This document shows, piece by piece, positions 2,206-59,010 of a stretch of 64,000 nt of DNA. The stretch's first letter is position 1. The number at the start of each line of letters is the position of its first letter. A program made the position numbers and the translations under genes. The DNA lies in contig OZ252149.1 in NCBI GenBank assembly GCA_965248755.1, forward strand, positions 864,001-928,000, given 5' to 3'. Origin of the DNA: Candidatus Latescibacterota bacterium (GTDB lineage Bacteria > Latescibacterota > CBDEFO01). The notes under the pieces were generated by a model. It was not told where the DNA came from. It searched no databases and worked only from the letters and a program-made list of their open reading frames with translations.

Positions 2206-2245
2206 CCCCGACCTCCAATTGAATCTATTGGGGGTTCAATCGGGG
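2206..2245. repeat. 21-bp palindrome family: two nested copies
   Basis: Outer CCCCGA...TTCAATCGGGG encloses inner CTCCAATTGAATCTATTGGGG (2213-2233). Confidence 0.75.
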
Positions 2246-2262
2246 ATCAATCCGGATAATTT

Positions 2263-5200
2263 CTACGTCACCTGTTCTATTTCTTCCTCAACTTCCACCT
2301 GCCTCCCAAGTAGCCTTGCGCCCAGGCACTTGAGATCCTCAAGGATGAAGTAGCCTACGGGGACGAGCAACAGGGTGATAAAGGTCGCGAACAGGACTCC
2401 GAACCCGAGAGAGATAGCCATAGGTATGAGGAACTGCGCCTGCAGACTCCTCTCTAACAGCAGGGGCGTGAGTCCGGCAAAGGTGGTCAAGGATGTGAGC
2501 AAGATGGGACGGAAGCGAGCCACACCTGCCTGCCGAAGTGCCTTCTCTATGGGGGTTCCATCCGCCCGTGTGCGGTTGACAAAATCGACCATGATCAAAC
2601 TGTCGTTTACTACCACACCGGTAAGCGCAACGATGCCGAACATCGACAGGATGGTCAGGTCCATTCCCATTATGATGTGTCCCCATATCGCTCCGACCAC
2701 GCCGAAGGGGATAGCGGCCATAACGATTAAGGGCTGTATGTAGGAGCGGAAGGGGACAGCCAAAAGGGCGTAGATCATCAGCAGGGCGATCAAAAAGCCG
2801 CGTTTTAAGCCATCTAAAGTTTCGCTCTGCTCCCGCTGTTCGCCTTCGAGGGAGTAGCTGATCCCAGGATGGTCTGCGAGCAGCTTGGGCAGGGCCGAAC
2901 CGGTAAGATCGGCTAATATCTCATTTGCATTGGCCTTGCTCTGATCTACATCGGCTGTGACGTTGACGGTGCGCCGGCGGTCGGTGCGTTGAATGGCAGC
3001 ATAGCCGCGCCCGAGTTTGGCGGTTGCCGCAACGGAAAAGGGAACTTCCCCGCCTGAGGGAGTTCGAATGCGCATGTTTTCCAGGTCGCCGAGGGAGCGC
3101 CGACCATCGGCGGGGTATCGCACCATCACGCGGATGTCGTCGCGGCCGCGCTGGATGCGTTGTGCCTCTTCTCCGTAGAAGGCTTGTCGCACCTGGCGCG
3201 CAAGATCAGAGAGGGAAAGACCTAAAGCCTCAGCGGCAGGCGTGATGGAGAGTTCGACCTCCTGTTTTCCGGGTCGGAAGGAGTCTCTAATGTCGATGAC
3301 GCCGGGATAGTTGTTCAACCTTCTCTTAAGTTCGTCCGCCACTACCTTCAACTGATCGTAGTCTAATCCCCGATTGAATCTATCGGGGACAGCAAGCTGG
3401 ATGTTGATGGCCTCGCCGGTGGAGAAGAGAGACGAGGTGAAGGTCAGCTCCTGAGCGTCGGGGATAGGACCGGTAAGGTTGCGCCAGCGGCTGGCGATCT
3501 CGGGACTGGTGATGCTCCGCTCCTCAGAAGGGGCCAGTTCGATGTTAACTTCTCCGAGATGGGCGCCTGAAAAGGAGCTGGTGCTTTGGCCCGGACGGCT
3601 CTGACTTGCGCTAAAGGGGTGTTCACCGATAGAAGCCAGGACGTGGCGGAAGACTCCGTTGTGTATTCCTCCTCCTTCAGCTTCGAGTTCTTTGCGCAGC
3701 TTCTGGGCACTCTCTTCAAGGCGTTGCACGGCATCGGCTGTGACCTCGACAGGCGTCCCCTGCGGCATTGTCAAGAGAGCGACGACGTTATCCGCATCCA
3801 CATTCGGGAAAAAGAGGAACTTGATCCAGCCGCCGCCGACCAGACCGGAAGTGATAAGTAAGATGGACACGCCGATGGCAAGTGTAAGATAGCGCCAACG
3901 CAGGCCCAGCTCTAAAATAGGGCGGTAGACCGTGTCGACGAAGCGCCGCATCTTTCCCGCGAAGCCCTCCTGGAATCTCCCCCAGATGCCGCGTATCCCC
4001 CGAGACGGATCAGGCTGGCCCTTCGACCTGGAGTGAGACAGATGTGCGGGCAAGATGAACAGCGACTCCACAAGGGAAAATAAAAGGGTGGGGATCACGA
4101 TGAGCGGAATGAACTTCATAATCTTGCCCATGTTCCCCGGCACGGACAATAGGGGAGCAAAGGCCGCTACTAAGGTCATAACCGCGAAGATCACCGGCGT
4201 TGCTAACTCCTGGGCACCGTCGACAGCGGCGCGCAGGCCTTTTTTGCCTTTCTGCTGATGCGTGTAGATGTTCTCACCGATGACGATGGCGTCGTCGACG
4301 ACGATTCCGAGCACAGCGATGAAGGCAAAAAGCGAGATGAGATTGATCGAGACGTCGAAGGTCGGCATCAGCCAGATGGCTCCCAGGAAGGAGATCGGAA
4401 TCCCCAGTGCGACCCAGAAGGCAAGGCGCAGCCGCAAAAAGAGCGCTAAAGAGAGAAAGACCAAAACCAGACCGGCCCGGCCGTTGCGGATCAGCAGGTC
4501 GAGCCTGCCCCTAAGGATCCTTGAAAAGTCCTGCCAGATAGTCAGAGTAATCCCTTCAGGCATGCGGGGCTGAGCCGCGCGGACATAGTTCTTGATCGCT
4601 TCGGCGACCTCTAATGCATTCTCTTCCCCGACCCGGAAGACCTGCACCATGACAGAAGGCTTGCCATCGAAACGCGCAGACTGATCGGTGTCAGCAAAGC
4701 CGTCCACGACCTGTGCGACGTCACCCAATCTGAGTCGTGTGCCGTCCGGGAAGGAGCGGAGGATGAGGTCCTCAAATTCTCCCCCTCGGTAGGCCTGACC
4801 CTTTGTACGCAGAAGTATCTCGCCTCCTGAAGTCTTCACAGACCCTCCCGGAAGGTCCAAAGACGAGCGGCGCACCGTACGGACGACCTCATCGAAGGTG
4901 AGGCCATAGCGCTGCAGAGCATCTTCGGAGACCTCTATAGAGATCTCATACGGCCGGGCGTTTGAGAGTTCCACCTGGGTTATCCCGGGCAGGGCGGCGA
5001 TCTCGTCCCGAACCCGTTCGCCGAGGTATTTGAGCGTTACCTCATCGGCATTGCCCAAGATGGCAACGTTTATGACTTGGCGGCGAAGTATTACCTCCTG
5101 GATAACCGGTTTCTCGGTCTCTTCAGGGAAGGTATCGATAGCGTCAACTCGGTTCTTGATGTCGTCAAGGAGCTTGCGAGTATCAACTCCAGGCAAAAGT

Positions 5201-5484
5201 TCCACCGTTACAACACCGACACCCTCCACGGCGGTGGAGGTGATGCGCTTAATGCCCTCAAGGCTCTGTATCTCCTCCTCAATGCGTATGCAGACACCTT
5301 CTTCTACCTCTTCGGGAGCGGCGCCGAGATAGACTACGGAGACAGTGATAAGCTCGGACGAGAACTCGGGGAAGATCTCCTGCTTAAGGCTCATAGCGGT
5401 CAAAACACCGCTGACCAAGATCAAGAACATAAGGAGGTTTGCAGAGACCCTGTTTTCGGCAAACCAGGCGATGGCGCGATTCAT
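2263..5484 (-). CDS. RND efflux transporter permease (AcrB/AcrD/AcrF family)
   Basis: 1073 aa; GIVVDDAIVIGENI, GVVVNDSLIMVD, RFRPILLTSLTT; two large periplasmic loops. Confidence 0.95.
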   Translation of the reverse strand: MNRAIAWFAENRVSANLLMFLILVSGVLTAMSLKQEIFPEFSSELITVSVVYLGAAPEEVEEGVCIRIEEEIQSLEGIKRITSTAVEGVGVVTVELLPGVDTRKLLDDIKNRVDAIDTFPEETEKPVIQEVILRRQVINVAILGNADEVTLKYLGERVRDEIAALPGITQVELSNARPYEISIEVSEDALQRYGLTFDEVVRTVRRSSLDLPGGSVKTSGGEILLRTKGQAYRGGEFEDLILRSFPDGTRLRLGDVAQVVDGFADTDQSARFDGKPSVMVQVFRVGEENALEVAEAIKNYVRAAQPRMPEGITLTIWQDFSRILRGRLDLLIRNGRAGLVLVFLSLALFLRLRLAFWVALGIPISFLGAIWLMPTFDVSINLISLFAFIAVLGIVVDDAIVIGENIYTHQQKGKKGLRAAVDGAQELATPVIFAVMTLVAAFAPLLSVPGNMGKIMKFIPLIVIPTLLFSLVESLFILPAHLSHSRSKGQPDPSRGIRGIWGRFQEGFAGKMRRFVDTVYRPILELGLRWRYLTLAIGVSILLITSGLVGGGWIKFLFFPNVDADNVVALLTMPQGTPVEVTADAVQRLEESAQKLRKELEAEGGGIHNGVFRHVLASIGEHPFSASQSRPGQSTSSFSGAHLGEVNIELAPSEERSITSPEIASRWRNLTGPIPDAQELTFTSSLFSTGEAINIQLAVPDRFNRGLDYDQLKVVADELKRRLNNYPGVIDIRDSFRPGKQEVELSITPAAEALGLSLSDLARQVRQAFYGEEAQRIQRGRDDIRVMVRYPADGRRSLGDLENMRIRTPSGGEVPFSVAATAKLGRGYAAIQRTDRRRTVNVTADVDQSKANANEILADLTGSALPKLLADHPGISYSLEGEQREQSETLDGLKRGFLIALLMIYALLAVPFRSYIQPLIVMAAIPFGVVGAIWGHIIMGMDLTILSMFGIVALTGVVVNDSLIMVDFVNRTRADGTPIEKALRQAGVARFRPILLTSLTTFAGLTPLLLERSLQAQFLIPMAISLGFGVLFATFITLLLVPVGYFILEDLKCLGARLLGRQVEVEEEIEQVT
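3368..3388. repeat. 21-bp palindrome inside the RND coding sequence
   Basis: CCCCGATTGAATCTATCGGGG; reads as (V)PDRFNRG in the RND frame. Confidence 0.95.
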
Positions 5485-6695
5485 CTTGCAACCCCTCGGA
5501 TCACAGCAGAGGCATCCTCATCTCCCATAGGTTCATCGGGCATAGTGCGCACCCGCATTCCGTCCGTCACAGCGTCCAGCGGAGAAAGACAGACACGCTC
5601 CTGGCAGGTCAGTCCCGAGCGGATTACCACTTCCTTCTTATCGGCGCGTAGGACCTCGACAGTGCGGAAGTGGAGCCGGTTTTCATCGTCGACGACCAGG
5701 GTCTGGTTGTGACTCCGCATCGCTCCACGCGGCAGCACGGTTACATCTTCAACCAGTCGGCCAATGATTTCAGCCTCCACAAAGAGGCCCACAGCTAACG
5801 GAGGCCTTTGGGGTTCGTCGCCGCGGCCGTAGGGGTTTTCGACCCGCGCGACGGCGTGGACCATGTGGCTTTTCGGGTCAATCTCTCCCTCGAGGCGCAC
5901 GATGTGGCCTCTCCAACTGTGCTGACGGCCGGCAAAGGTCGAACTCAGGATGACTTCCGGACCGCGGCGGTGTACTGTATCTCCTCGAAAGTCGAGCGGC
6001 AGGTCCAAAAAGGCGAGCTGATCATCGGGAATAGGCAGTCGGACCTCGGCGTAATCGACTGCGTAGATTTTCGCTGAAGGTGCACCTCGGTTTACAAATT
6101 GGCCGACGTCAACGCTCTTTGTGCGGACTCGGCCGGCGTACGGCGCGCGGATCTCGGTGCGCTCCAGATCGAGTTGGGCCTGCTGCAAGACAGCTTGGGC
6201 AGCGGCTAGGTCAGCTCGGGCCTGTGCTAATTGAGGGCGTCGTACGACCAACGGGTGAGGCTTTCCCTGTCCCAGGAGCTCCCATTCACGGCGGGCTACG
6301 TCTGCCTCTTCTTTCTCCCACGCCAGGCGTAGCCTCCCCTGCGCTACCTGTGCCTGCGCGCGCACTAACGCCAGTTCGTAGTCACTTGGGTCGATGGTGA
6401 CTAAGAGGTCACCGGACTCAAAGAAGCCACCCGCAGCAAATGCCGGAGATACAGCTATCACGCGTCCAGATACCTGAGAGATCAGGGTGCTTTCGGTGCG
6501 AGGAGTAACGCTCCCTTGCGAGCGAACCCTCAGTTGAAGGTTCTGACGTTGCACGGTGAGAACCCGAACCAGCGGTGCGGGGACTGCTGCTGGTCGGGAT
6601 TCGACAGCCGTCCGAGCTTTAACTAACACTATTAAGCCCACAATTCCCAGAGCGAGGACAACGAGTGGAAGGATAATCTTTAATTTTCTGTTCAT
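5481..6695 (-). CDS. RND membrane fusion protein (periplasmic adaptor)
   Basis: N-terminal TM segment, SQVSGRV lipoyl half, helical hairpin, IRAPYAGRV; stop overlaps the RND start. Confidence 0.93.
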   Translation of the reverse strand: MNRKLKIILPLVVLALGIVGLIVLVKARTAVESRPAAVPAPLVRVLTVQRQNLQLRVRSQGSVTPRTESTLISQVSGRVIAVSPAFAAGGFFESGDLLVTIDPSDYELALVRAQAQVAQGRLRLAWEKEEADVARREWELLGQGKPHPLVVRRPQLAQARADLAAAQAVLQQAQLDLERTEIRAPYAGRVRTKSVDVGQFVNRGAPSAKIYAVDYAEVRLPIPDDQLAFLDLPLDFRGDTVHRRGPEVILSSTFAGRQHSWRGHIVRLEGEIDPKSHMVHAVARVENPYGRGDEPQRPPLAVGLFVEAEIIGRLVEDVTVLPRGAMRSHNQTLVVDDENRLHFRTVEVLRADKKEVVIRSGLTCQERVCLSPLDAVTDGMRVRTMPDEPMGDEDASAVIRGVAR

Positions 6696-8128: not shown

Positions 8129-8194
8129 ACCGTTTCTCTTTTGTAAAGGTGCCTTTTATGTCCTGCGAGGGAATAACCAGAAATATTTTACTTT

Positions 8195-8215
8195 CCCCGA
8201 TTGAATCTATCGGGG
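8195..8215. repeat. 21-bp palindrome, intergenic
   Basis: Exact CCCCGATTGAATCTATCGGGG between pck and the efflux operon. Confidence 0.95.
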
Positions 8216-8247
8216 ATCAATGTTGTATTATTACCTTTTACTATGAT

Positions 8248-10744: not shown

Positions 10745-10924
10745 TGCCTCAGTCGGCACGTGAGACCCTTTGTCTTATTGCAAAATCGAGTCAGGCACAA
10801 AGATATTAAAACGTAGTACCTCGTGTCACACTCCTGTATCCCCCCTTAATAAGGGGGGAATTAAAGGGGGGTCGCTAACTTTAGCGTTGATAAAAAATCA
10901 ACAATTTAGAAGCAGGAGTTGCAT

Positions 10925-14577: not shown

Positions 14578-14642
14578 GTAGGGGCGAGGTTAACTCGCCC
14601 AAGGGCTGCCTCCGATAGATTCAATCGGGGGCCAGCCCCTAC
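14578..14642. repeat. GTAG-type REP-like element containing a 21-bp palindrome copy (14610-14630)
   Basis: GTAGGGGCGAGGTTAACTCGCCC...GCCAGCCCCTAC with CTCCGATAGATTCAATCGGGG inside. Confidence 0.75.
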
Positions 14643-24874: not shown

Positions 24875-24896
24875 CCCCGGATAGATTCAATCGGGG
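24875..24896. repeat. 21-bp palindrome copy (one extra G)
   Basis: CCCCGGATAGATTCAATCGGGG. Confidence 0.9.
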
Positions 24897-25153
24897 CGCT
24901 TGCCATGACAGTTTTAAGGTACCCGTAATAACCCAAGTCGGGCTACGTCACTGCACGTCCCTCCAGGTCATTACAAGGGGGATGAAATCCCCCGAAGCAA
25001 TCTTCCCGTATGCTGCTACTATTTTGACCTGATACTTAGCCTGATACTTAGCAATGTATAGCTTGGTCAGATATTTCATAAAGACGAGTATAGTCTTTCT
25101 CTTTATAGGCCTGGTGTCGGGCGGCTATATGATTGTGGCTCGAGAGATATTAG

Positions 25154-27403: not shown

Positions 27404-28691
27404 TGTACTGCCCCCCAGAAAAGCGACATCAATTAAGCAACTTGGGGTAGCAGATAAAATTGTTTTCTCCACTCTTCCGGGGTCTTGTATCCCAGGGATG
27501 AATGAAGCCTGTTCTTGTTGTAATTATCGATCCACTGAGATATGATCTTCTCAGCTTGTTCAAAGGACTTGAAATTGTGAAGCCACACACACTCCTGCTT
27601 GAGGGTCCTGAAAAAACGTTCTATGACCCCGTTCCAATCGGCCTTTCCGCTCGGAATATATTCTTGACGAATGTCCCAATATTCGGTACTTGCCAAATAG
27701 GTCCGAGACAAAAAGATGGAGCCGTTGTCAGAGCGCAAAGTGAGACCCTGGGGGACAGCCTCCTTAGGAAGTGTATCGAGAGATCACGGCCCGATCCAGG
27801 GCATCTGTGGCCTCCAGTGCCCTCCCTTTTCGACTAAAACGATACCCGGGGAACCTCCCGACTCCCGTTGTCCACCACCGCAATAAGAGGACACCAACCA
27901 TCTTCCCCACAATAGATCTTGGTCAAGTCAGCCGACCAGAGACTGTCAGGACGATCCATCACAGAACGCTTCTGGGCAACCTGTGGCCCCTTTCTCCCGG
28001 GGTCCCCGATTGATTCTATCGGGGATTCCACAGCTTACACTGCCACCCCTTAAGCTTCATTATCCTATGAACCTTCTTGATGTTGACATATGCCCCTTCC
28101 TTGAAACGAAGATGCGCCCAAACCCGCCTGTGACCAAATGCCTCTTCTTGGTCGAGTATCCCTCGAATACGAAAAGCAAGCTGTTCATCTATCACAGACT
28201 CTTCGACAGAAGAACTGACACCTCTATACCTAAGCCTACACAGAGTCGAACGATGCAAACCCAAAGCCAAAGCTACCACCTTCCGGGAATAGCCTCGACC
28301 CAAAAACCGCTCACTCAAGGCAACCGCTTCGTTTTTTTTAGACGGGCTACCTCCTCGAGTATCTCCAACTGGAGGGTTAAGTGCCCTACCTTACGCTCCA
28401 ACCGGCTGACCTCCCGCTCCTTCGCATCCTTGCGACCACGCCGAGACTTCAGACTCTCCTGGCCTCCTTCCAAGAAACTATCACGCCAAGCATACGCCTG
28501 TGACTGGCTAATTCCATTCTTCCAACACACCTCTGATACATTCGCTCCTTTCAAAACAGCCAACACCACCTCTACCTTACGGGTCGCCGTCCAGCGCTTA
28601 CCATCTTTCACTTCGGGGCTTGACACCTTGACCTCCTTTCTCAAACCCCAATTTGCAAAATATTTGTCGCCCTGTCAAGGGGAGCGGTATG
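27404..28691 (-). mobile_element. IS3-family element, copy 2 (orfB inactivated)
   Basis: 4-bp target duplication GAAT (27400-27403 and 28692-28695); orfA intact at 28315-28644; orfB has two +1 indels and a net +20-bp palindrome insertion relative to copy 1. Confidence 0.95.
28004..28024. repeat. 21-bp palindrome inserted in IS3 orfB
   Basis: CCCCGATTGATTCTATCGGGG, absent at the homologous site of copy 1 (near 651). Confidence 0.95.
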
Positions 28692-33321: not shown

Positions 33322-33863
33322 CATACCGCTCCCCTTGACAGAGCGACAAAGAATTTGCAAATTGGGGTTTGAGAAGGGAGGTTAAGATGTCAATCCCCGA
33401 AGTGAAAGATGGTAAGCGCTGAACGGCGACCCGTAAGGCAGAGGTGGTGTTGGCTCTTTTGAAAGGAGCAGATGTATCAGGGGTGTGTCGGAAGAGTGGA
33501 ATTAGCCAGTAGCAGGCGTACGCTTGGCGTGATAGTTTTTTCGAGGGAGGCCAGGAGAGTCTGAAGCCTCGGTGTGGTCGCAAGGACCCGAAGGAGCAGG
33601 AGGTTGGCCCCGATAGAATCAATCGGGGATTGGAACGGTGTTGTAGAGCGTTTCTTCAGGACCCTCAAGCAAGAGTGTGTCTGGGTTCACAATTTTGAGT
33701 CCTTTGAACAGGCTGAAGTAATTATATCCCAATGGATCGATGACTATAACAAGAACCGGCTTCATTCATCCCTGGGGTATAAGACCCCAGAAGAGTGGAG
33801 AAACCAATTTTATCTGCTACCCCAAGTTGCTTAATTGATGTCGCTTTCCAGGGGCGCACTACA
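33322..33863 (+). mobile_element. IS3-family element, copy 3, internally deleted (542 bp)
   Basis: Both ends kept (CATACCGCTCCCC...GCGCACTACA); orfA has stop codons; about 740 bp missing. Confidence 0.92.
33608..33628. repeat. 21-bp palindrome at the IS3 deletion junction
   Basis: CCCCGATAGAATCAATCGGGG joins orfA sequence directly to late orfB sequence. Confidence 0.95.
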
Positions 33864-38552: not shown

Positions 38553-41093
38553 ATGTCAGATAAAGAAGCCACAGCCCGAATCAAGATCAACAAACTGCTT
38601 GAAGCGGCAGGCTGGCGCTTCTTTCCGGAAGGGAGCACGCTCGCCAACATCCGCCTCGAACCCAGCGTTACGATCAAATCATCAGATCTGGATGCCCTTG
38701 GCGACAACTTCGAGAAGACCAGCAAGGGCTTCATCGACTTCCTGCTGCTCGACACAAAAGGTTTCCCGCTCATAGTCCTTGAGGCCAAATCGGAGGACAA
38801 AAACCCACTCGTCGGCAAGGAGCAGGCCCGCAAATACGCCAAGTCCAAGAACTGCCGTTTCGTTATCCTCTCCAACGGCAACCTGCACTACTTCTGGGAC
38901 TTGGAGCGCGGCAACCCCTACGTCATCACGTCCTTCCCTGCGTCGGACTCGGTGATCGGCTACCAGCAGGTCTCGCCCAACCCGCGACGCCTGGTCGAGG
39001 ACCAGGTCGGCGACGACTACATCGTGCTGACCCAGCGCCCGAACTACCAATCCGAAGCGGCGTGGCGAAACGAGGGGGAGCGTCCCGGCTACATCCAGGC
39101 CAACAAACTGTGTTTCTTGCGGCCCTATCAGTTGAAGGCCATTCACGCCCTGCAACGAGCCGTGAAGAACGGCAAGGACCGCTTCCTGTTCGAGATGGCC
39201 ACCGGCACCGGCAAGACCCTCACGGCCGGCGCCGTCATCAAACTATTCCTGCGCTCGGGCAACGCCCGGCGTGTCCTCTTTTTAGTTGATCGTCTTGAAC
39301 TGGAGGATCAGGCCAGGAAGGTCTTTGCGACGCTCCTGTCCGCCGACTTTCAGACGGTGATCTACAAGGAGAACCGTGACGACTGGCGGCGGGCGGAAAT
39401 CGTCGTTACCACGGTGCAGTCGCTGCTCTTCAACAATAAGTACCAGCGACTCTTTTCGCCGACCGATTTCGATCTGGTCATTTCGGACGAAGCCCACCGC
39501 TCCATCGGCGGCAACGCCCGCTCTGTCTTCGAGTACTTCATCGGTTACAAGCTCGGCCTCACCGCCACGCCTCGGGACTACCTCAAGAGATTCGACAAAG
39601 CCAACCGCACCACTCGGGACCCGCGCGAATTCGAGCGCCGTCTGCTACTCGACACTTACCGCACTTTTGGCTGCGAAGATAGCCAGCCCACCTTCCGCTA
39701 CTCGCTGCTTGATGGCGTGAAGGATGGCTACCTCGTCAACCCCACTATCGTGGATGCCCGCACCGAAATCACCACCGAACTGCTCTCCGAAGACGGCTTC
39801 GTAGTCACCTTGACCGACGACACGGGCGAAGACCAACTGGAGGCCTTCAAGCAGCGGGAGTTCGAGAAGCGCTTTTTCGCCGAGGCTACTAACCAGCTTC
39901 TCTGCAAGACCTTCCTGGAGAATGCCCTCCGCGATCCGGTGAGCGGCGAGATCGGCAAGTCCATCATCTTTGCCGTCAGTCAGAACCACGCCGCGAAGCT
40001 GGCGCAGGTCCTCAACCAGATGGCCGACCGCATGTTTCCCGGCAAGTACCAATCCGACTTTGCCGTGCAGGTCACCTCGCAGATCCCCGACGCCCAGCAG
40101 TTCAGCATCAACTTCAGCAACAATAACCTGCTCGGCTCCGCTAACTTCCTGCCCGCCTACAAGACCAGCAGGGCGCGCGTCTGCGTGACGGTCGGCATGA
40201 TGACCACGGGCTACGACTGCACCGACATCCTGAATCTCGGCCTCTTCCGTCCGATCTTCTCGCCGACGGACTTCATCCAGATCAAGGGGCGCGGGACCCG
40301 CAAGCACAACTTCCTTGAACAGCTTTTCGATGACAGTCTCAAGGACGGCGTCTCGCAGCCACAAAAGAACGCCTTCAAACTATTCGACTTCTTCGCCAAC
40401 TGCGAGTACTTCGAGGAAGACTACAACTACGACGAGGTGATCAAACTTCCAAAGCCCAAGGGCAAAGGCGGGGAGGGAGGAGGAGGCGGAGGGCCGGAGG
40501 TAGCCGGCGGCACCTACGAGCACTTGGGCGCCGACATCCTCTCCATGGTCAAGGAGGAGACCATCGGCTTCGAGGGGATGAAGATCGACCGGATGTTCTT
40601 CGAGAAATTCCAGGACACTGTGCGCGAAAACGAAACCATTGTTGCCGCTGTCGAAGCCGGTCAATGGGACCGCGTCATCAACTACGTGAACCGCGAGGTC
40701 TTCAACAAGCCCGAGGAGTACTACACCCTCGGCAAGTTACGCAAGGCCGCCTCCGTCGATCGCCGCCTGAGCCTACGCGAAATTCTGGAGAAGATCTTCG
40801 GCCTTATCCCGCGCTTCAAGTCCAAGGAGGAGCTACTGGAAGAGGAGTTCGCCAAGTTCGTCGCCGACTACAAACCGCAGCAGGCCACCATCATTCCAGC
40901 GTTGAAAAACTTCTTCAAGGCCTATGCTACCAACGGCCAGCTCCGCGACATTATGGAGACTAGGAAGTTCGCCACGCTTTACACAACTTCCTCTTTCACC
41001 GCAGCCGACCTCAAAGCCGTGCCGTCCAAATACCGCACCCTCATTCCTGAATACATCAAGGACTATGTGTCCCTTAACCAATTCGCCGCTTAG
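38553..41093 (+). CDS. hsdR: Type I-like restriction enzyme R subunit (nuclease plus SF2 helicase)
   Basis: IDF...LEAK nuclease, LRPYQ, MATGTGKT, DEAHRS, GLTATP, TTGYD, QIKGRGTR. Confidence 0.9.
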   Translation: MSDKEATARIKINKLLEAAGWRFFPEGSTLANIRLEPSVTIKSSDLDALGDNFEKTSKGFIDFLLLDTKGFPLIVLEAKSEDKNPLVGKEQARKYAKSKNCRFVILSNGNLHYFWDLERGNPYVITSFPASDSVIGYQQVSPNPRRLVEDQVGDDYIVLTQRPNYQSEAAWRNEGERPGYIQANKLCFLRPYQLKAIHALQRAVKNGKDRFLFEMATGTGKTLTAGAVIKLFLRSGNARRVLFLVDRLELEDQARKVFATLLSADFQTVIYKENRDDWRRAEIVVTTVQSLLFNNKYQRLFSPTDFDLVISDEAHRSIGGNARSVFEYFIGYKLGLTATPRDYLKRFDKANRTTRDPREFERRLLLDTYRTFGCEDSQPTFRYSLLDGVKDGYLVNPTIVDARTEITTELLSEDGFVVTLTDDTGEDQLEAFKQREFEKRFFAEATNQLLCKTFLENALRDPVSGEIGKSIIFAVSQNHAAKLAQVLNQMADRMFPGKYQSDFAVQVTSQIPDAQQFSINFSNNNLLGSANFLPAYKTSRARVCVTVGMMTTGYDCTDILNLGLFRPIFSPTDFIQIKGRGTRKHNFLEQLFDDSLKDGVSQPQKNAFKLFDFFANCEYFEEDYNYDEVIKLPKPKGKGGEGGGGGGPEVAGGTYEHLGADILSMVKEETIGFEGMKIDRMFFEKFQDTVRENETIVAAVEAGQWDRVINYVNREVFNKPEEYYTLGKLRKAASVDRRLSLREILEKIFGLIPRFKSKEELLEEEFAKFVADYKPQQATIIPALKNFFKAYATNGQLRDIMETRKFATLYTTSSFTAADLKAVPSKYRTLIPEYIKDYVSLNQFAA

Positions 41094-41101
41094 GAGTCAC
41101 C

Positions 41102-43555
41102 ATGCTCGACACCGACACCAAACGCCGCATAGACACCGCCCGCGACATCCTCGTCGGCAAGGTGCCCGATCCGAAATCCCAGGTCGAGCAGATCACCATC
41201 GCCCTCATCTATAAGTTCATGGACGACATGGACGCAGGGTCCGAGGAAATGGACGGGGAGCGCACATTTTTCTCCGGCGATTTCGCCCGATACGGCTGGG
41301 CCAAACTCATGCGATCCGGCCTCGGCGGATATGATGTTAGGGATCTCTATGACGAAGCGCTCAAGCGGATGCCTCAAAATGAGGGCCTTCCAAAGCTATT
41401 TCGGCAAATATTCAGTGACGCCAGTCTGCCTTACCGCGACCCCGAAACGCTAAAGATGTTCCTCAAGATCATCGACGAGTTCGAGTACGATCACTCCGAA
41501 CGCCTCGGCGACGCCTTCGAGTATCTGCTCTCAGTCCTCGGTTCCCAGGGCGACGCCGGGCAGTTCCGCACGCCGCGCCACATCATTGATTTCATCGTTG
41601 CGGTCGTTGATCCGAAGAAGAACGAGACCGTTCTCGACCCCGCCTGCGGCACGGCCGGGTTCCTGATCTCGGCGTACAAACACATTCTTCGCGCCAACAC
41701 CGACGCCAGGGGGAACTCCGCCCTGACGCCAGACGACAAGGGCCGCCTCGCCAGCAACTTCAAGGGCTACGACATCTCGCCCGACATGGTGCGCCTGTCT
41801 CTGGTGAACCTCTACCTGCACGGCTTCACGGACCCGCACATCCACGAGTACGACACCCTCACCTCCGAGGACAAGTGGAACGAATACGCCGATGTGATCC
41901 TCGCCAATCCGCCCTTCATGTCTCCGAAAGGGGGCATCAAGCCGCACAAGCGCTTTTCCGTGCAATCCAAGCGCAGCGAGGTGCTGTTCGTGGACTACAT
42001 GGCCGAGCACCTGACACCCGGCGGCCGCGCCGGCATCATCGTGCCCGAGGGTATCATCTTTTCGAGCCAGACCGCGTACAAACAGCTCCGACAGATGCTG
42101 GTGGATGATTATCTCGTCGCCGTCGTCTCGTTGCCGGCCGGCGTGTTCAATCCCTATTCTGGCGTCAAGACCTCGATCCTGATACTCGACAAATCGCTGG
42201 CGAAGCAGAGCGACACGATCGCCTTCTTCAAGGTTGAGAACGACGGCTTCGATCTGGGCGCCCAGCGCCGCCCCATCGACAAGAACGACCTGCCACAGGT
42301 CGCCGCCGAGATAGAAGATTACCTCGGCAAACTTCGCGCCCGCGAATCCGTCGAGGACCTCAAGGCCACGCTCGACCTGATCGTGGAGAAGGAGAAGGTC
42401 GCGGCGAATGGCGACAACAACCTGAGTGGGGAACGGTATCGAGAGAATGGGGCACGCAAGTCAACGTATACTCTGAGGAAATTCGAGGACGTGTGCACGC
42501 TGGAGTATGGAGCAAGCCTTCCAAAGGCTAAACGCATTGAAGGACCGTACCCAGTAGTTGGTTCAAATGGGGTCACTGGTTACCACAACGAGTTTCTTGT
42601 GGAAGGCCCAGCCATCATAATTGGGAGAAAGGGTTCGGCAGGGGAGGTCACATGGATTCCAGAGAGCTGCTTTCCTATTGATACGACCTATTGGGTCAAA
42701 CAAGCAAAACCAGAAGAGTCGCTTATGGCCTATCTCTACTGGGTATTGAAAACTTTAGGTCTCCCGGCTCTCAGGGGTGGCGCCGGAATACCGGGGCTCA
42801 ACCGGAGCGATGTCTACAACACGCACAAAATCCCGCTTCCCCCGCTGGAGGTGCAGAAGGAGATCGTGGTGGAGATCGAGGGCTACCAGAAAGTCATCAA
42901 CGGCGCCCGCGCCGTTCTCGACAACTACCGCCCCCACATTCCCATCCACCCCGACTGGCCGATGGTGGCGTTGGGGAAAGCCTGTATCGTGAACCCCCGC
43001 AAGTCTGAGGTGACTGACATTGAAGGCACAACGGTTGTGTCATTCGTACCAATGTCCGACATCGGCGAGCATGAGATGTTCTTCGAACTAAAAGAAACGA
43101 AGCGCCTGGACGAAGTTGCCACGAGTTACACATACTTCAAGGATGGTGATGTCCTTCTCGCGAAGGTAACACCTTGTTTTGAGAACGGAAAGGCTGGCAT
43201 TGCTAGGAGGTTGCGCAATGGTATCGGCTTCGGCTCAAGTGAGTTCTATGTTTTAAGACCTACGGACGCTGTCCTCCCCGAGTGGGTCTTCATGTGTTCT
43301 GCAACCCTAGCATTTCGGGCGTGGGTCACGCCACAAATGACGGGAACCGGCGGTTTGCAACGTGTCCCACGAGCGGTCGTAGAGAGCTATCATATCCCCC
43401 TCCCGCCCCTCGCCACGCAGCAAGCCATCGTTGCCGAGGTCGAAGCCGAGCAAGCCCTCGTCGCCGCCAACCGCGAACTGATCGACCGCTTCGAGAAGAA
43501 GATCCAGGCCACCATCGCCCGCGTCTGGGGCGAAGCCGAATCCGTAGATCGTTGA
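41102..43555 (+). CDS. N6-adenine methyltransferase fused to specificity subunit (HsdM-HsdS)
   Basis: GQFRTP, DPACGTAGFL, NPPF, then two TRDs each ending IPLPPL..Q..IV. Confidence 0.9.
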   Translation: MLDTDTKRRIDTARDILVGKVPDPKSQVEQITIALIYKFMDDMDAGSEEMDGERTFFSGDFARYGWAKLMRSGLGGYDVRDLYDEALKRMPQNEGLPKLFRQIFSDASLPYRDPETLKMFLKIIDEFEYDHSERLGDAFEYLLSVLGSQGDAGQFRTPRHIIDFIVAVVDPKKNETVLDPACGTAGFLISAYKHILRANTDARGNSALTPDDKGRLASNFKGYDISPDMVRLSLVNLYLHGFTDPHIHEYDTLTSEDKWNEYADVILANPPFMSPKGGIKPHKRFSVQSKRSEVLFVDYMAEHLTPGGRAGIIVPEGIIFSSQTAYKQLRQMLVDDYLVAVVSLPAGVFNPYSGVKTSILILDKSLAKQSDTIAFFKVENDGFDLGAQRRPIDKNDLPQVAAEIEDYLGKLRARESVEDLKATLDLIVEKEKVAANGDNNLSGERYRENGARKSTYTLRKFEDVCTLEYGASLPKAKRIEGPYPVVGSNGVTGYHNEFLVEGPAIIIGRKGSAGEVTWIPESCFPIDTTYWVKQAKPEESLMAYLYWVLKTLGLPALRGGAGIPGLNRSDVYNTHKIPLPPLEVQKEIVVEIEGYQKVINGARAVLDNYRPHIPIHPDWPMVALGKACIVNPRKSEVTDIEGTTVVSFVPMSDIGEHEMFFELKETKRLDEVATSYTYFKDGDVLLAKVTPCFENGKAGIARRLRNGIGFGSSEFYVLRPTDAVLPEWVFMCSATLAFRAWVTPQMTGTGGLQRVPRAVVESYHIPLPPLATQQAIVAEVEAEQALVAANRELIDRFEKKIQATIARVWGEAESVDR

Positions 43556-45034: not shown

Positions 45035-45093
45035 CTAAATAAGTGGAGAGCAAACAGTAGGCATACTACAGGGATGAGCGGCGTAGTCCTTGT

Positions 45094-45149
45094 CCCCGAC
45101 TGAATCTATCGGGAATTGAGGACATCCTTCGCCCCGATTAAATCAGGGG
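45094..45149. repeat. Two palindrome-family copies (45094-45114; shortened variant 45132-45149)
   Basis: CCCCGACTGAATCTATCGGGA and CCCCGATTAAATCAGGGG. Confidence 0.75.
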
Positions 45150-53391: not shown

Positions 53392-53412
53392 CTGTGACAT
53401 TTTCTGTCACAG
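53392..53412. promoter_or_regulatory. Candidate operator (8-5-8 inverted repeat)
   Basis: CTGTGACA-TTTTC-TGTCACAG upstream of the lipoprotein-peptidase array. Confidence 0.4.
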
Positions 53413-54064
53413 ATTACGGAATTCCCGCAATGTTCTTGTTAAGTATTTCTACAGGATAATATGATGGCTTGTCTGATCCCGAATTAGGTATAAAAAGGTA
53501 ATTCTTTGTCATGTACTTGAAGTAGCCAAAGATGATTTTGGTTTCGAAAAGGAGGATTTCAGATTGGCGAGTACACAACACAACACTCCCTTTCATAAAT
53601 ATTGAATCCAGCCCAAATACAACACGTAGTTTCCTCGGATCGGGATAGGGAAACACCCAAACTGAATTCGCATCTTAATATACGAGAATTCCTACACTCT
53701 GTCAAGCTTTTCTTAGTACTATTTTGAAGATAACCATAATATGTTACATAATATAGAATATATCAACGATTATATAAATACTATAAGACATTTGTAAACA
53801 TGAACTATATCAGCTATAGTTGTCAAAGCCAGGGAAGTTGGAAATACAGAAGTCATCACCATTCCAAAGCCCATCTCTCAACTTCTGCATATCAGGAATC
53901 TGGAACCTGTGGTCGAAGCTGCGAACGGCAGAGCCCCTTTGTCTTTGGCTGTTGGCGTATCTCCACACCGCAAAGTGTGCTGCGTTCCAGGCCGCTTGGG
54001 AAGCTGGCGCGGATGCAGTTGTGCGCTGGCACCTCCTGCAGCAGACGCGGATTTGGACATTGAT

Positions 54065-54085
54065 CTCCGATTGAATCTATCAAGG
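54065..54085. repeat. Degenerate 21-bp palindrome copy
   Basis: CTCCGATTGAATCTATCAAGG. Confidence 0.75.
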
Positions 54086-54226
54086 ATTGATTTTGAAAGG
54101 CAACCGATTCCTTGGCTGACTACGACTGACACAGGTTTAGACAGCCCCCTGATCGTGCACACTGGATATAGCTTCGGCGAGCCGATCATTCCCCTTGACC
54201 CATCCTACAGACCCCGAAAGAATGAT

Positions 54227-54247
54227 CCCCGATTGCTTCTATCGGGG
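54227..54247. repeat. 21-bp palindrome copy
   Basis: CCCCGATTGCTTCTATCGGGG. Confidence 0.88.
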
Positions 54248-56215
54248 AGTGCAGGCCTCTTTTTCACCTCTTATTCCCGCCGCACAGTTGATCATAGAAC
54301 ACTGTTCATTAGAAAGCATGGTGAACTCATCTGCATGGGAGGCCCCAATGACCATTGACATTGAAAATAGTTACGCCAAGTACGTCATTCAGAGCGATGG
54401 CAGGAATCTCCATTTTGTGGACAAGTCAACGGGGCTAGACTATTGCGTCCAGAACCCCAGATCCTCGTTTGCCCGCGTGAAGAAAACAGGCCGGTACTAC
54501 GGCGCTTCATCGGTCTCCTACACCGATGGGCAAATAGAAGTGCAGTTTGGAGAATCGGGGGTGAGCGGTGTCATAGGAGTTGTCACCCATGACCACTATT
54601 TCATCCTGGAAGTTGTGTCCGTGGGCGACGAGCATGTGGAAGAGCTGGTGTTCGCCGACATCCGACTCACGCTTGGAGGAGTGACGGAAGAATCCTTCGC
54701 CGCCTGTGCACTTGCGCTGAATCTCCAGACCAAAGTCACTGAATTACCGGGACCGAACAGCCATCTCCGAGCCGCGTGCTATCCAAGATTCGGATTTCCC
54801 GGTGCCAAGGTGGCTCTTATCGGATGTCCACAGAGCGAACTTCGCAGGGTGTTGCAGGAGGCGGTAAGTGCCGCTGAAGAGCTGCCTCACTCGGCCATCG
54901 GAGGGTCGTGGGCGTTAGATGCTCCCATAAACAAAGGCTCGTATCTTTTCAATTTTGGCAACGTTACCGAGGAGACAGTAGACGACTGGATCGGCTTGGT
55001 CCAGAGCCTGGGATTCAAACAGCTCGATTTCCACGGAGGGCGCTCCTTCCGATTTGGAGACTGCCGGCCCGATCCAGAGATGTACCCGCATGGGTTGGCC
55101 AGCCTGAAGGCCGTGATTGACAGGCTCCACGCGGCGGACATCGCAGCGGGCCTGCACACCTATTCATTCTTGATCGACAAGAGTTGCCCATGGGTGACTC
55201 CCGTTCCTGACCCGCGTCTGGGGATGGATGCGACATTCACTCTGGCCGAGCCGTTGACGCCCAAGGCCGCCGCGGTGCCGGTAGTCGAGTCAACAGTGAA
55301 TATGTCCACAATCACGGGCTTTGTCGTGCGCAATAGCGTAACGCTGCAGGTCAATAACGAGCTTATTACGTACACCGGTGTCACCAGGGATCCGCCGTAC
55401 GCTTTCACCGGCTGCGAACGAGGCGCCTACGGCACTCGCGTCGAACCCCACGCCAAAGGAGCTGAGGTACACCATCTCAAGGAGTGCTACGGGCTGTTCG
55501 TGCCCGATGCTGATTCCACACTCCTTGCGGAAGTGGCGGCCAAGACTGCGGAAGCCTTCAACGAATGCGGCTTCGACATGATATACCTGGATGCTCTGGA
55601 CGGCGAGGACGTCCTGGGAGGCGAGGAAAACGGCTGGCACTACGGTTCGAAGTTCGTCTTTGAGCTGTGGAAGCGACTGAAGAAGCCGGCGCTTGTGGAG
55701 ATGAGCACGTTCCACCATCACCTCTGGTTCGTCCGCTCCCGCATGGGGGCCTGGGATCATCCGAGGCGCAGTCACAAGAAGTTCATCGATATCCACTGCG
55801 AGGCGAACGAGAGCTACCAGCGTATGTACCTGCCGGTGAACCTGGGGTGGTGGGCCGTTAAGACCTGGTCCGGGGCTCAGGGCGAGCCGACATTCCCGGA
55901 TGACATCGAGTATCTGTGCTGCAAGTGTCTCGGGACTGACGCCAGCTTATCTTTGATGGGCATAGATCCCGACAATGCCCATGAGATTCCGGCGTTATCC
56001 AGGCTGGCCAACATCATAAAAGATTATGAAACCCTGCGCCTCTCGAACTATTTTCCAGAATCGGTTAAGGCCAAGCTGAGGGCACCGGGCGAGGAGTTTA
56101 CGCTGATGCGGAGTCCACGCGGAAAATACCAGTTCCAGCGCGTTCAGTACGCCAAGCACAAAGTGGAGTGTATGGACATGTGGAGCAACGCCTGGAAGAC
56201 CTATAATAGATTCGA

Positions 56216-57841
56216 CCGACATTCCCCATATCACATTCATGAGGGATTATATTTCGATACATTCTTGTTTCTGAATTAATATTACCACTTTTACATTTTT
56301 CAACAAGTACTTTTTTCAATTAAAATAGTATTTTCCTCTGAATTATCACTTTCTTTGTGTTTAAATCCTCCAATTAGAGACACCTCTCCATCGACTCACA
56401 AAAAAATGTGGCAGTTTAAACAGAATAACATCGCAATCGTTCAATCCGGGATAATATTTCGGCAAATAACCTCTTGTCTATCCCAACCTCAGCCATTTGA
56501 AACGTAATATATCCGCTGTGTCTGACAATCTTCGCTCCGATTTTGATAAATTTCACGAGGAGGCTGCGTAGTGACCAGTGTTTGATTTTCTTCGGAAGAA
56601 CAAAACGTCGCAGGAAGTTGCCCAAGTTGTAAGCCAGAACAAACAGCCAGAGCCTCACCTGATTGGAGACGAAACGCTTGCATGAGAGTCGGGTCCAGTT
56701 CAGAGCATACTTGCCCTCCTTAATCCACTGCTCAGCTCTGCCACGGCCATTGTAGAAGTGTACCACGCCTTCTGGCTTGGCGCTCATGTTGGTCACGATA
56801 AATCCCACTCTTGGGAATAACTCCCCTTGGTGCCATTCAACCTTGGCGACCACTCGCCTCGATTGATCCCAACTGGCCGCTTTATATTGAAATTCATATA
56901 ACGATACAATCGGTTTCCTCGGCGGTCGTCCAACTGGCCGAGTCAGCAGGTATCGTATCTTTTCATAGAGTATCTCATTTGCGGGAAGCCGAATGGCATA
57001 CAAATAGCCGTTTCCCTCCAGATAATCATAAATCTCAGGCTTTGCGAATGCAGCATCGCCTCGAAAGTATTTCCTATTCTTCTTGCTCTCGTATCTCTTG
57101 ACGATCGGTTCCAGAACTTCCTTCCAACGATCAGCACTGTGAACATTACCAGAGCGAAGTAGGACTCCTTCACAATCCCCGAACTGATTGAAGCAGAACA
57201 CTGGATGAAAACAGGTACATCCGAAATGACCGTTGTAAGCTGATCCTTCCTGCTGGCCATGTACCGGACTCTCCGAACTGTCCATGTCCAGAATGATTCG
57301 TTGATGCTGTGTTTTACTCATCGCTTTTTGAACCCACTTGCCATTGATATCTGACAAGTTTCTGAGATTGTCATGCTGAGTCAGTATATCAGTTTCAAAA
57401 CGTCCTATCGTGTTGGAGCTGGCAGCTTGCCTGCCTTTGTCCTTCTTTCCGGTAATCGCTCGCATGACGGGATCAACGGATAATCGCTCGGCGTCATTTA
57501 CATCTTCATATCCTGCAAGACGGCTGTATATCGATTGACGCAGGAGAGTAGATATATCATGTTGGATATTACGGCCTGTGCGTTTATCGGTAAAAACCGC
57601 TGATACCGAATCAAATAATCCCAGTGCGTAATCAAGGTCACGATACGCAAGAAGTCCACCGTTTGATGTCACCTTTGCACCATGAAATTCAAGCTTTATT
57701 CCTCCATCAAAACCTACTTTCATTCTTTCACCCTCTGGATGATCAATATTTATCCGCCATTTATGAGTCTTATTTATTGTAATATAACATGTTCTGGCGA
57801 CTTTGACAACCATTTTTCGGGTCTAATATGGCGAATGGGGG
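56216..57841 (-). mobile_element. IS1380-family element, copy 2
   Basis: 5-bp target duplication TTCGA (56211-56215 and 57842-57846). Confidence 0.97.
56416..57813 (-). CDS. IS1380-family transposase
   Basis: Translation identical to 25540-26937. Confidence 0.93.
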   Translation of the reverse strand: MVVKVARTCYITINKTHKWRINIDHPEGERMKVGFDGGIKLEFHGAKVTSNGGLLAYRDLDYALGLFDSVSAVFTDKRTGRNIQHDISTLLRQSIYSRLAGYEDVNDAERLSVDPVMRAITGKKDKGRQAASSNTIGRFETDILTQHDNLRNLSDINGKWVQKAMSKTQHQRIILDMDSSESPVHGQQEGSAYNGHFGCTCFHPVFCFNQFGDCEGVLLRSGNVHSADRWKEVLEPIVKRYESKKNRKYFRGDAAFAKPEIYDYLEGNGYLYAIRLPANEILYEKIRYLLTRPVGRPPRKPIVSLYEFQYKAASWDQSRRVVAKVEWHQGELFPRVGFIVTNMSAKPEGVVHFYNGRGRAEQWIKEGKYALNWTRLSCKRFVSNQVRLWLFVLAYNLGNFLRRFVLPKKIKHWSLRSLLVKFIKIGAKIVRHSGYITFQMAEVGIDKRLFAEILSRIERLRCYSV

Positions 57842-58871
57842 TTCGAACGTCAGTCCGTTGGTCTGCGCATCGAAGCGTTGATGGCCGCCGGCCCCTACGA
57901 TGCAGCGGGGAATGTGACCCTGGCCGATTTCGAGGATGTCGCGGATTTCGACGATCGGGAAGCCGAGTCTGAGATTCAGGTAGACCTGCGGATGTCGTGG
58001 GACAATGTGCAAAGCGGAACGAGCAGCGGTTTCCTGACGGCGTCGAGCAGTCGGTCAAGCCGGAAGGGCGCGTGGACGAAGGTCGGCAAGAGGTTCTCGC
58101 CCCCGATTGACCTCAGCGCGCTTGAGGGCCTCGGAGTCTGGGTGTATGGCGACGGCAAAGGAGAAGTCCTGAACTTCCAGGTGAGAAGCCCCGAACATGT
58201 TGTTGCGGGCATCGGGGAGCACTACGTTATCGTCGACTTCATGGGGTGGCGCTATTTTGAGCTGATCGAGCCCGAGGGGGGCCGCTACGCCGATTACGCG
58301 TGGCCATATGGCCACGCGTATGCGATTTACCGCGAACGCGTGCAATACGACCAGGTGGCAGGCCTTTGCCTGTGGTATAACAACCTGCCTCCGAACGATG
58401 CGGCAACTTGCTACCTAAGTCCCATCAAGGCCCTGCCGCTGGTCAATGCCACACTCATCAATCCCGCAGTCACTCTGGGCGACAGAAGGATTCTCTTCCC
58501 CACAGATATTGAGAGCGGATGCTACCTGGAGTTCCATTCGATGTCAGACTGCAAGCTTTACGGTCCCCAGGGTGAACTGATCCGTGAGGTAGTTCCAGAA
58601 GGGGGCGCGCCTGTCGTCGAAGCCGGAGAGAACCTGGTGAGCTTCACCTGCGACGTTCAAGGGGACATCAATCCGCGAGCCTTTGTGACAGTAATCAGCC
58701 GGGGTGAGTCGCTATAGAAACTTCTTGAATATTCCCTTAACGTTCTGTGAAACAGTTTTGGCATAGGTGGTCGCAGAGCCCTCACTCCCTTACTAAGTGA
58801 GATGTGCGAAGCGTCTTCCAGGTGTCTGAGAAACTTTCTCACATAATCTGTCTTAATCATTCCTCTGTCTT

Positions 58872-59010
58872 AATCATTCCAAGGAGGCCTGCCCCCGAAT
58901 GATTCTATCGGAGGTTCATACCGAAGCGGTCACATATATGGTTTCTTCCGTGACAGAAAGCCCCGATTGATTCTATCGGGAGGGTTGCTTGGCGTCGCTC
59001 GCATTGACAG
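58872..59010. repeat. Degenerate palindromic element carrying two 21-bp palindrome copies (58893-58913, 58961-58981)
   Basis: TCATTCCAAGGAG...CCGAAGCGGTC...GTTGCTTGGCGTCGCTCGCATTGAC frame with CCCCGAATGATTCTATCGGAG and CCCCGATTGATTCTATCGGGA inside. Confidence 0.7.

What the first reader, a model, noticed from the sequence alone, without database searches (positions are those of the whole stretch)
2206..58981. A 21-bp palindrome that behaves like an ultra-small mobile insertion (about 13 copies in 64 kb)
Seen: CCCCGAT(T/A)GAWTC(T/A)ATCGGGG or close variants at 2206/2213 (nested), 3368, 8195, 14610, 24875, 28004, 33608, 45094, 45132 (short), 54065, 54227, 58893 and 58961, in both orientations, in genes, IS elements, intergenic DNA and other repeats. 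Structure: 7-bp arms, one mismatch, central GAWTC; one flank is often AT. There is no consistent target duplication and no dedicated enzyme in the window. Known: REP elements are mostly intergenic and spread by RAYT/TnpA-REP; Rickettsia palindromic elements enter ORFs but are several times longer. Inference: this is a minimal element written into DNA in trans, by an HUH-type enzyme or by templated insertion at break repair. I do not recognise it as a named family.
Basis: partly seen in the sequence, partly recalled or inferred. Interest (0 to 1): 0.88.

Follow-up and report, generated by a model that had tools for sequence, protein, structure and literature searches.

The report
Tiny jumping 23-base DNA hairpin
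A 23-base DNA hairpin with no gene of its own has inserted hundreds of times into this bacterium's genome, usually replacing or duplicating four bases; it looks like the detached core of a known repeat type that sits beside small DNA-cutting enzymes, but what moves it is still unproven.

Summary
The repeat is real and mobile. There are 12 copies in the window (0 in shuffles) and 549 genome-wide. A same-genus genome has as many; 58 of 59 other phylum genomes have none. The unit is 23 bp (T..A or C..G around the 21-mer). Filled and empty alleles occur between genomes, among IS3 copies (15 of 69 filled) and in other studies' contigs. An AcrB-family gene gained 7 residues absent from 10 of 10 homologues.

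Junctions mostly replace 4 bp (36 of 78 nested cases); a minority duplicate 4 bp. Junctions fall at purine-pyrimidine steps, and other repeats are favoured targets. The hairpin matches the core of a widespread YGTCA-tagged, CCA-tailed REP that sometimes flanks small Ssn-like GIY-YIG genes. No RAYT or Ssn gene was found in this genome, so the enzyme is inferred only.

It works like cyanobacterial SDR elements (paper not readable here): a new variant of a known kind. The scan found this family before elsewhere in this genome (e1-1524658, e1-356785); the parent REP link and 4-bp junction rule are added here.

The parts
2206..2245 (.). Nested pair: host copy split (2206-2211, 2235-2245) by a 23-bp copy (2212-2234) that replaced 4 host bases
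   Evidence: same geometry in 36 of 78 nested cases; shared with G001
3367..3389 (+). 23-bp copy (T..A) in frame in the AcrB-family gene 2263-5484(-); adds 7 residues
   Evidence: absent from 10 of 10 homologues of other genera, present in G001
5531..5532 (.). Empty site in the RND adaptor gene 5481-6695(-); relatives carry a 27-bp in-frame insertion (23 bp plus 4-bp duplication)
   Evidence: L084:13021; runs X4, X5, X7 filled, X1 empty
8194..8216 (+). Intergenic 23-bp copy; in relatives a second copy is nested in it
14609..14631 (-). Copy (C..G) inside a GTAG-type REP-like hairpin
   Evidence: sequence read directly
24875..24897 (-). Copy beside a CAGTAG heptamer-type repeat; shared with G001
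28003..28025 (+). Copy in IS3-family OrfB (IS about 27400-28680), net +20, breaks the frame; carried by 15 of 69 IS copies
33607..33629 (-). Copy inside a decayed IS3-type stretch, flanked by a short TTGG repeat
45093..45115 (+). Intergenic copy with a 3-bp repeat (TTG) on both sides
45132..45148 (.). Degenerate 17-bp sister hairpin
54064..54086 (+). Decayed copy with a 4-bp target duplication (TTGA)
54226..54248 (+). Copy near the start of ORF 54195-56279
58892..58914 (+). Copy with a GCCTG 5' extension (27-nt form) and a loop also seen in tagged parent REPs
58960..58982 (+). Copy in a short repeated segment

Best explanation
The element is a non-autonomous 23-bp hairpin: Y-CCCCGA, 9-nt loop, TCGGGG-R. 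It is the detached ('solo') core of a YGTCA-tagged CGTC-type REP. Shown: it is gained at new sites, prefers other hairpin or tandem repeats and itself, is joined at purine-pyrimidine steps, and either replaces about 4 target bases (net +19; +20/+21 when 1-2 further bases come along) or sits in a 4-bp duplication or with a 4-nt extension (net +27). Inferred: a trans-acting nuclease nicks the target at two R^Y steps 4 nt apart. A hairpin copied or cut from another copy is patched in by host repair; loss of the 4-nt overhang gives the deletion and fill-in gives the duplication. Most likely enzyme (inferred, about 0.4): a small Ssn-type GIY-YIG nuclease whose gene visits the lineage transiently. 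In genes only stop-free, frame-keeping insertions survive.
For: Gain and turnover: 36 of 167 comparable sites differ between G000 and 1.2 Mb of G001 (16 of 93, 20 of 74); 15 of 69 IS3 copies filled, all with OrfB broken, while 53 of 54 empty copies are intact; 7-residue insertion against 10 of 10 homologues; +27 allele in three other studies. Junctions: 36 of 78 nested cases lack exactly 4 host bases at one host site, 18 in each orientation (shuffled pairing 16.7); 4-bp duplication in 14 of 165 repeat-free sites, against 2.1 expected (maximum 6 in 300 shuffles); R^Y at the left foot in 374 and at the right foot in 342 of 486. Targets: 321 of 486 lie in other repeats, against 16-22% background. 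Structure kept: stem pair 5/17 has 26 of 28 double changes complementary. Parent: 131 distinct tagged REPs show the same outer pair (T/A 116, C/G 13), a CCA tail (89) and head-to-head dimers (88 of 123 loci); one has an exact solo loop (L335); 35 of 486 solos have a loop seen in tagged REPs. Ssn-like genes lie within 700 bp in 3 of 123 tagged loci, one bounded by two inverted REPs (L453). G001 has an intact Ssn-like gene and G000 has 6 stumps of one.
Against: No Ssn-like gene was found in G000 (98% complete) nor convincingly in G061, G062 or G064. The G001 gene is flanked by a different repeat. 0 of 120 solo loci have one within 2 kb; 3 of 123 against 0 of 120 is weak and the loci are not independent. 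SsnA needs bases outside the palindrome and cuts upstream of it (PMC11893778 section 8); solos lack the tag. 0 of 131 tagged REPs match the published SRM pattern. The commonest solo loop (222 of 486) was not among the tagged-parent loops, whose pattern did admit it. 42 of 78 nested cases do not follow the 4-bp rule. Many of the 36 differing sites are messy, and loss by slippage cannot be excluded for +27 sites with direct repeats such as 5531.
Confidence: 0.55

Rival explanations
1. No dedicated enzyme: replication template switching at hairpin-stalled forks copies a hairpin from another copy, guided by microhomology.
For: 158 of 486 copies are nested in or beside copies of themselves. Empty sites resemble the element slightly more than controls: mean longest shared word 4.6, against 4.2 at random (p 0.026) and 3.9 in flanks (p 0.001), in 33 events with at least two duplicates. 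No candidate enzyme is shared by G000 and G001.
Against: Fixed 23-bp boundaries, a sharp 4-bp mode at one host site in both orientations, several events with no terminal microhomology (e.g. 3423794 and 4180506), and letter-for-letter copies in other phyla point to enzyme-defined ends.
Confidence: 0.2
2. HUH (RAYT/TnpA-REP) single-strand transposition.
For: Hairpin structure; GTAG-type REP motifs occur in G000 (230 GTAGGGGC), so a RAYT was probably once present; four other solo-carrying genomes hold 1-13 Y1_Tnp matches.
Against: No Y1_Tnp in G000 or G001. No GTAG tag. Copies are singlets (30 of 546 neighbours within 150 bp), whereas the RAYT-mobilised unit is a REP doublet (PMC3116915 passages). 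CGTC REPs are not linked to RAYT genes (PMC3733652 passages). HUH insertion is normally without target loss or duplication (own knowledge).
Confidence: 0.1
3. A host enzyme that makes 4-nt staggered breaks (type II topoisomerase), or an RNA/reverse-transcriptase route, captures the hairpin.
For: The 4-bp geometry; E. coli REPs are gyrase targets (PMC3733652 discussion).
Against: It does not explain restriction to one genus of the phylum. G001 has no RVT_1 match. The recalled gyrase consensus cuts at Y^R, not R^Y (recalled, untested).
Confidence: 0.1
4. Conserved protein-binding site, uptake sequence or assembly artefact.
For: 131 of 167 comparable sites are shared with G001.
Against: Sites arise by insertion rather than point change; frameshifting copies sit in IS genes; near-absent from 59 other phylum genomes; seen in separate assemblies and studies.
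Confidence: 0.03

Closest known systems
Small dispersed repeats (SDR1-8) of Nostocaceae, Elhai et al. 2008, Genome Res 18:1484 (paper not held; seen only as citing passages in PMC5861425 and PMC2884548, the rest recalled)
   Same: About 20-bp dispersed, possibly mobile repeats. Recalled: 21-27 nt, hairpins with compensatory changes, nested copies, lodged in heptamer repeats and mini-transposons, no known enzyme.
   Different: Other phylum and sequence; SDRs reported only from Nostocaceae and SDR5 inserts at HIP1, while this genome has only 49 HIP1 sites. Here a tagged REP parent and a 4-bp replace-or-duplicate junction are seen; whether Elhai et al. report such junctions could not be checked.
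CGTC-tagged REP superfamily (Di Nocera et al. 2013, PMC3733652; passages and first part of the discussion read)
   Same: The parent form has the CGTC/TGTC tag, AT at the stem base, 8-bp stem, CCA tail and head-to-head dimers; some CGTC REPs are intragenic.
   Different: The solo lacks tag and tail, is a singlet and has a 9-nt loop against 4-5. The paper notes that the relation of tagged and untagged hairpins is open and names no enzyme.
Ssn nucleases with NTS/SRM hairpins (Chenal et al. 2025, PMC11893778; passages and section 8 read)
   Same: Tagged parents flank small GIY-YIG genes, 60-69% identical to the G001 Ssn-like protein, in REP-gene-REP layout (L132, L453); the paper proposes an IS-like history.
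   Different: In the parts read, SsnA is shown only to cut ssDNA, not to move hairpins. Parents and solos do not match the published SRM pattern (0 of 131, 0 of 486). No gene lies near the solos.
REPINs/RAYT (Bertels and Rainey 2011, PMC3116915; passages read)
   Same: Miniature non-autonomous palindromic DNA.
   Different: REPINs are extragenic doublets tied to RAYT, with singlets seen as dead remnants. Here singlets are the unit, enter genes, and no RAYT was found.
Rickettsia palindromic elements RPE-1/-4/-6 (as described in PMC3733652)
   Same: In-frame insertion into protein genes.
   Different: More than half of those inserts are dimers or groups adding 20-30 residues; here 7-9 residues from an untagged unit.

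Membership tests
SDR elements (Nostocaceae) | 21-27-nt dispersed repeat with hairpin structure (recalled) | tested here: met
   23 bp, 8-bp stem, -7.2 kcal/mol as DNA; compensatory pair 5/17
SDR elements (Nostocaceae) | Mobile, nested, lodged in heptamer repeats and small transposons (recalled) | tested here: met
SDR elements (Nostocaceae) | Sequence kinship to SDR1-8 | not testable with these tools
   paper not held; no Rfam match in the window
SDR elements (Nostocaceae) | Host in Nostocaceae; HIP1 target (SDR5) | tested here: not met
   49 HIP1 sites only; close relative is a named Ca. Latescibacterota MAG
CGTC-tagged REPs | Unpaired CGTC/TGTC tag at one end | tested here: not met
   1 strict tagged match in G000, in a heptamer context; 1 of 123 metagenome solo matches. 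Met by the parent form.
CGTC-tagged REPs | 8-9-bp stem with 4-5-nt loop and CCA tail | tested here: not met
   stem 8 bp, loop 9 nt between the GA/TC arms, no tail in solos; tail in 89 of 131 parents
CGTC-tagged REPs | Mostly head-to-head dimers | tested here: not met
   30 of 546 neighbours within 150 bp; parents 88 of 123 loci
Ssn/SRM system | Match to the SRM degenerate pattern | tested here: not met
   0 of 486 solos, 0 of 131 parents
Ssn/SRM system | Small GIY-YIG gene flanked by the repeat | tested here: inconclusive
   yes for parents in 3 of 123 loci; no for solos, 0 of 120; none in G000
Ssn/SRM system | ssDNA binding and cutting by the cognate Ssn | not testable with these tools
   needs biochemistry
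REPIN/RAYT | RAYT gene flanked by the repeat; GTAG tag; doublets | tested here: not met
MITE of a DDE insertion sequence | Ends like a resident IS and a constant target duplication | tested here: not met
   duplication in a minority only, deletions more common; no element-bounded nuclease gene seen among 42 element-ORF-element spans (read by eye)

The most novel reading that the evidence does not exclude
Untagged hairpin cores cut out of Ssn-associated REPs form a cross-phylum class of 17-27-bp 'oligonucleotide transposons'. A roughly 100-residue GIY-YIG nuclease releases the hairpin at the R^Y steps at both feet and nicks targets at R^YNNR^Y; host repair then pastes it in with a 4-bp deletion or duplication. 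This would make Ssn the missing mobiliser of CGTC REPs and probably of cyanobacterial SDRs, and a source of 7-9-residue insertions in proteins.
Probability: 0.3. Interest if true: 0.85.

Novelty: new variant of a known kind. Interest (0 to 1): 0.62.

Why it matters
How repeats of 20-30 bp with no gene spread (SDRs, CGTC REPs, untagged hairpins) is a long-standing open question; PMC3733652 says CGTC REPs lack a known enzyme. This genus gives hundreds of young copies, a 96%-identical sister genome, nested copies that record the junction, and concrete enzyme-repeat pairs (L453, L132). The question can therefore be tested directly in vitro. About one site in five differs between two close genomes, and insertions add 7-9 residues to working proteins or kill transposase genes, so the element is an active mutagen in this lineage.

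Tried and rejected
RAYT: none in G000 or G001. GIY-YIG in G000: one 608-aa match only, probably UvrC; a regex for GIY-YIG motifs printed nothing. Reverse transcriptase: 2 in G000, 0 in G001, and in 29 of the 59 other genomes, which lack the element. Four-helix-bundle gene: 1 with a stop in G000, 0 in G001. Element-gene-element cassette in G000: 42 spans, none looked like a small nuclease; read by eye, not scanned against Pfam. Recurrent neighbour genes in 242 loci: only repeats, paralogous host genes and one Ssn-like hit. Viral contigs: 0 exact matches. Rfam: 0 in the window. No RNA holder listed. Strand bias against replichores: no clear pattern, and GC skew is weak; 323 plus against 257 minus overall. 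A single fixed target duplication directly beside the 21-mer was rejected. The 3-bp 'duplication' class (43 against 12.5) is partly 4-bp replacement inside 7-bp repeats (11 of 20 heptamer cases); the excess in repeat-free sites is marginal (13 against 5.4, maximum 12). My first count of intact IS copies measured an antisense frame and was redone on the transposase strand. The idea that heptamer arrays are footprints of insertion was considered and not tested. Literature: the exact 21-mer in either orientation or its 13-base core, 0 papers; untagged/target-deletion terms, 0; Ssn plus mobile, 2 listings, of which only PMC11893778 was read; Latescibacter plus palindrome, 7 listings, none read; seen as listings only. 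Subscription papers and all supplements were not seen; the supplementary repeat lists of PMC3733652 and PMC11893778 may hold the parent REP. A sequence look-up in earlier findings returned nothing.
Full report
OBSERVATION. The degenerate 21-mer matches 12 places in the window at up to 3 mismatches, against 0 in each of 100 shuffles. The two further items in the finding are also there: the split host copy at 2206 and a degenerate 17-bp sister hairpin at 45132. The complete genome G000 (4.54 Mb, one contig) holds 135 exact copies and 549 at up to 3 mismatches, spread evenly; the reversed control gives 0. With a strand-aware pattern there are 547 sites, 486 after removing copies carried by repeated elements.

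DISTRIBUTION. At up to 1 mismatch G000 has 329 copies and the same-genus G001 has 338. One other genome has 1, and 58 of the 59 other phylum genomes have none. With any 9-nt loop the counts are 291 and 328, against at most 3 elsewhere. Exact copies occur in a named Ca. Latescibacterota MAG whose loci align to G000 mostly at 85-98%, in Deltaproteobacteria and Thermodesulfobacteriota MAGs (dozens of sites in G061) and in metagenome contigs. None was found in viral contigs.

ANATOMY. The bases flanking the 21-mer are complementary in 367 of 486 sites (T..A 212, C..G 153). In several empty-site comparisons neither base comes from the target, so the unit is 23 bp. It folds as an 8-bp stem. Stem pair 5/17 shows 28 double changes where 4.25 are expected, 26 of them complementary; the other pairs show no such excess. 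One base further out, a purine precedes and a pyrimidine follows (395 and 370 of 486), without pairing to each other.

IT IS AN INSERTION. (a) Against 60 slices (1.2 Mb) of G001, 93 of 547 G000 sites were comparable: 77 shared, 16 not. Of 153 G001 sites, 74 were comparable: 54 shared, 20 not. Flanks are about 96% identical. Many of the 36 are complex; about 15 read cleanly by eye. Some sites recur in these slices and are not added. (b) The IS3-family element at 27400-28680 has 69 near-full copies: 15 carry the hairpin at one site and all 15 have a broken OrfB, while 53 of the other 54 are intact. This is one gain, later spread by the IS. (c) The copy at 3368 adds 7 residues to an AcrB-family protein; it is absent from 10 of 10 homologues from other genera and present in G001. 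(d) At 5531 the window is empty, while G001 and contigs of runs X4, X5 and X7 (three studies) carry a 27-bp in-frame insertion; the polarity there is not established. Only 82 of 547 copies lie deep inside ORFs of 150 aa or more, against 70% expected, and the two reading frames with a stop hold 0 and 1 of the 82. These ORFs are mechanical calls.

JUNCTIONS. Among 33 non-nested events collected by script (at least two are duplicates), net lengths were +27 (11), +20 (9), +21 (6), +19 (4), and one each of +18, +22 and +25. Nested copies give an independent ruler. Of 78 measurable cases, 36 lack exactly 4 host bases, all at one host site (A^TCTA^T), 18 in each orientation; shuffled pairing gives 16.7. 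The other 42 scatter from -13 to +9. In heptamer repeats 11 of 20 fit the same 4-bp loss. By eye, the +20 events read as a 24-nt unit (an extra purine) replacing 4 bases. The +27 events are either 4-bp duplications (3281000, 4004483, window 5531) or 23 bp plus a 4-nt extension without duplication (L371 twice, and an IS end). Exact 4-bp duplications occur at 20 of 486 sites (3.1 expected) and at 14 of 165 repeat-free sites (2.1 expected). Targets are often other repeats: 158 nested, 134 heptamer, 126 tagged-REP and 34 GTAG-REP contexts; 321 of 486 in any, against 16% genome-wide and 22% outside ORFs. One cut geometry, R^YNNR^Y with a 4-nt stagger, would give both outcomes; that is inference.

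ORIGIN. A Deltaproteobacteria locus holds a solo between two tagged REPs whose core is nearly the same hairpin (L001). Searching for that form returned tagged REPs in many phyla. Among 131 distinct ones: a Y before GTCA in 122, outer pair T/A 116 or C/G 13, CCA tail 89, and head-to-head dimers in 88 of 123 loci. These are the CGTC-REP traits of PMC3733652, except for the longer loop. The solo equals this REP cut at the purine-pyrimidine steps at both feet. One tagged REP has an exact solo loop (L335), and 35 of 486 solos share a loop with parents, but the commonest solo loop was not seen among them. Small GIY-YIG genes lie beside tagged REPs in 3 of 123 loci (one partial), and beside 0 of 120 solo loci; L453 is a clean REP-gene-REP unit. 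Neither parents nor solos match the published SRM pattern.

ENZYME. G000 has no Y1_Tnp and one long GIY-YIG protein. G001 has no Y1_Tnp but has an intact Ssn-like gene flanked by a different NTS-like repeat. G000 keeps six stumps of that repeat with the gene's first codons. No reverse transcriptase or four-helix-bundle gene is shared by both. GTAG-type and other tagged REPs are abundant in G000 without their enzymes, so enzyme genes appear to come and go (inference). SsnA needs bases outside the palindrome (PMC11893778 section 8), and solos lack them; this is the main weakness of the Ssn reading.

VERDICT. Shown: a 23-bp non-autonomous hairpin, gained at new sites, with a 4-bp replace-or-duplicate junction and a sequence tie to a tagged REP. 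Inferred: nuclease nicking plus host repair (0.55 overall; an Ssn-type enzyme about 0.4). It works like an SDR and is kin to CGTC REPs, but fails defining tests of the CGTC, SRM and REPIN families; SDR kinship could not be tested. Searches for the sequence and for this combination found nothing in the held library, which lacks most subscription papers. Earlier scan notes described the same family in this genome and similar GIY-YIG-linked palindromes elsewhere; they were used as leads, not as support. New variant of a known kind; interest 0.62.

Noticed in passing
window 56-1321 and 27400-28680: IS3-family element with 69 near-full copies in the genome; a hairpin-inactivated lineage of 15 copies at 15 separate loci has kept transposing in trans.
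   Followed up: yes
window 45132-45148; 14 exact copies in G000: 17-bp sister hairpin with the same arms and a 5-nt loop, also nesting in the 21-mer.
   Followed up: partly
L101 (G001:C4:478393-481614); G000 1272113, 1852135, 2714209, 2979198, 3031452, 3547895: Intact Ssn-like gene between NTS-like repeats in G001, absent at the matching G000 site; six repeat-plus-gene-start stumps in G000, four of them continuing into downstream sequence like that of L101.
   Followed up: partly
G000 e.g. 103986, 558943-559031: A multi-copy mini-element built from two tagged REPs that was hit by the hairpin at two separate sites, both net +20.
   Followed up: partly
window 25540-26937, 56416-57813, 28653-29870, 59145-59642: Two DDE_Tnp_1_4 (IS1380-type) transposases, a DUF772/DDE transposase and a Mutator-family stump; the genome is very IS-rich.
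   Followed up: no
window 1335-2024 and 29913-33622: Tandem IPT/TIG and PD40 repeat genes, apparently fragmented by IS3 copies.
   Followed up: no
window 38553-43555: Type I-like restriction-modification pair with a fused methylase-specificity gene.
   Followed up: no
G000 2579539-2579850: Four-helix-bundle (PF05635) gene with an internal TGA; heptamer CTGTCTA-type repeats are abundant genome-wide.
   Followed up: no
L058 (G065:C33:507-527): A single exact copy in a Nanoarchaeia MAG contig of 3.5 kb; could be mis-binned.
   Followed up: no
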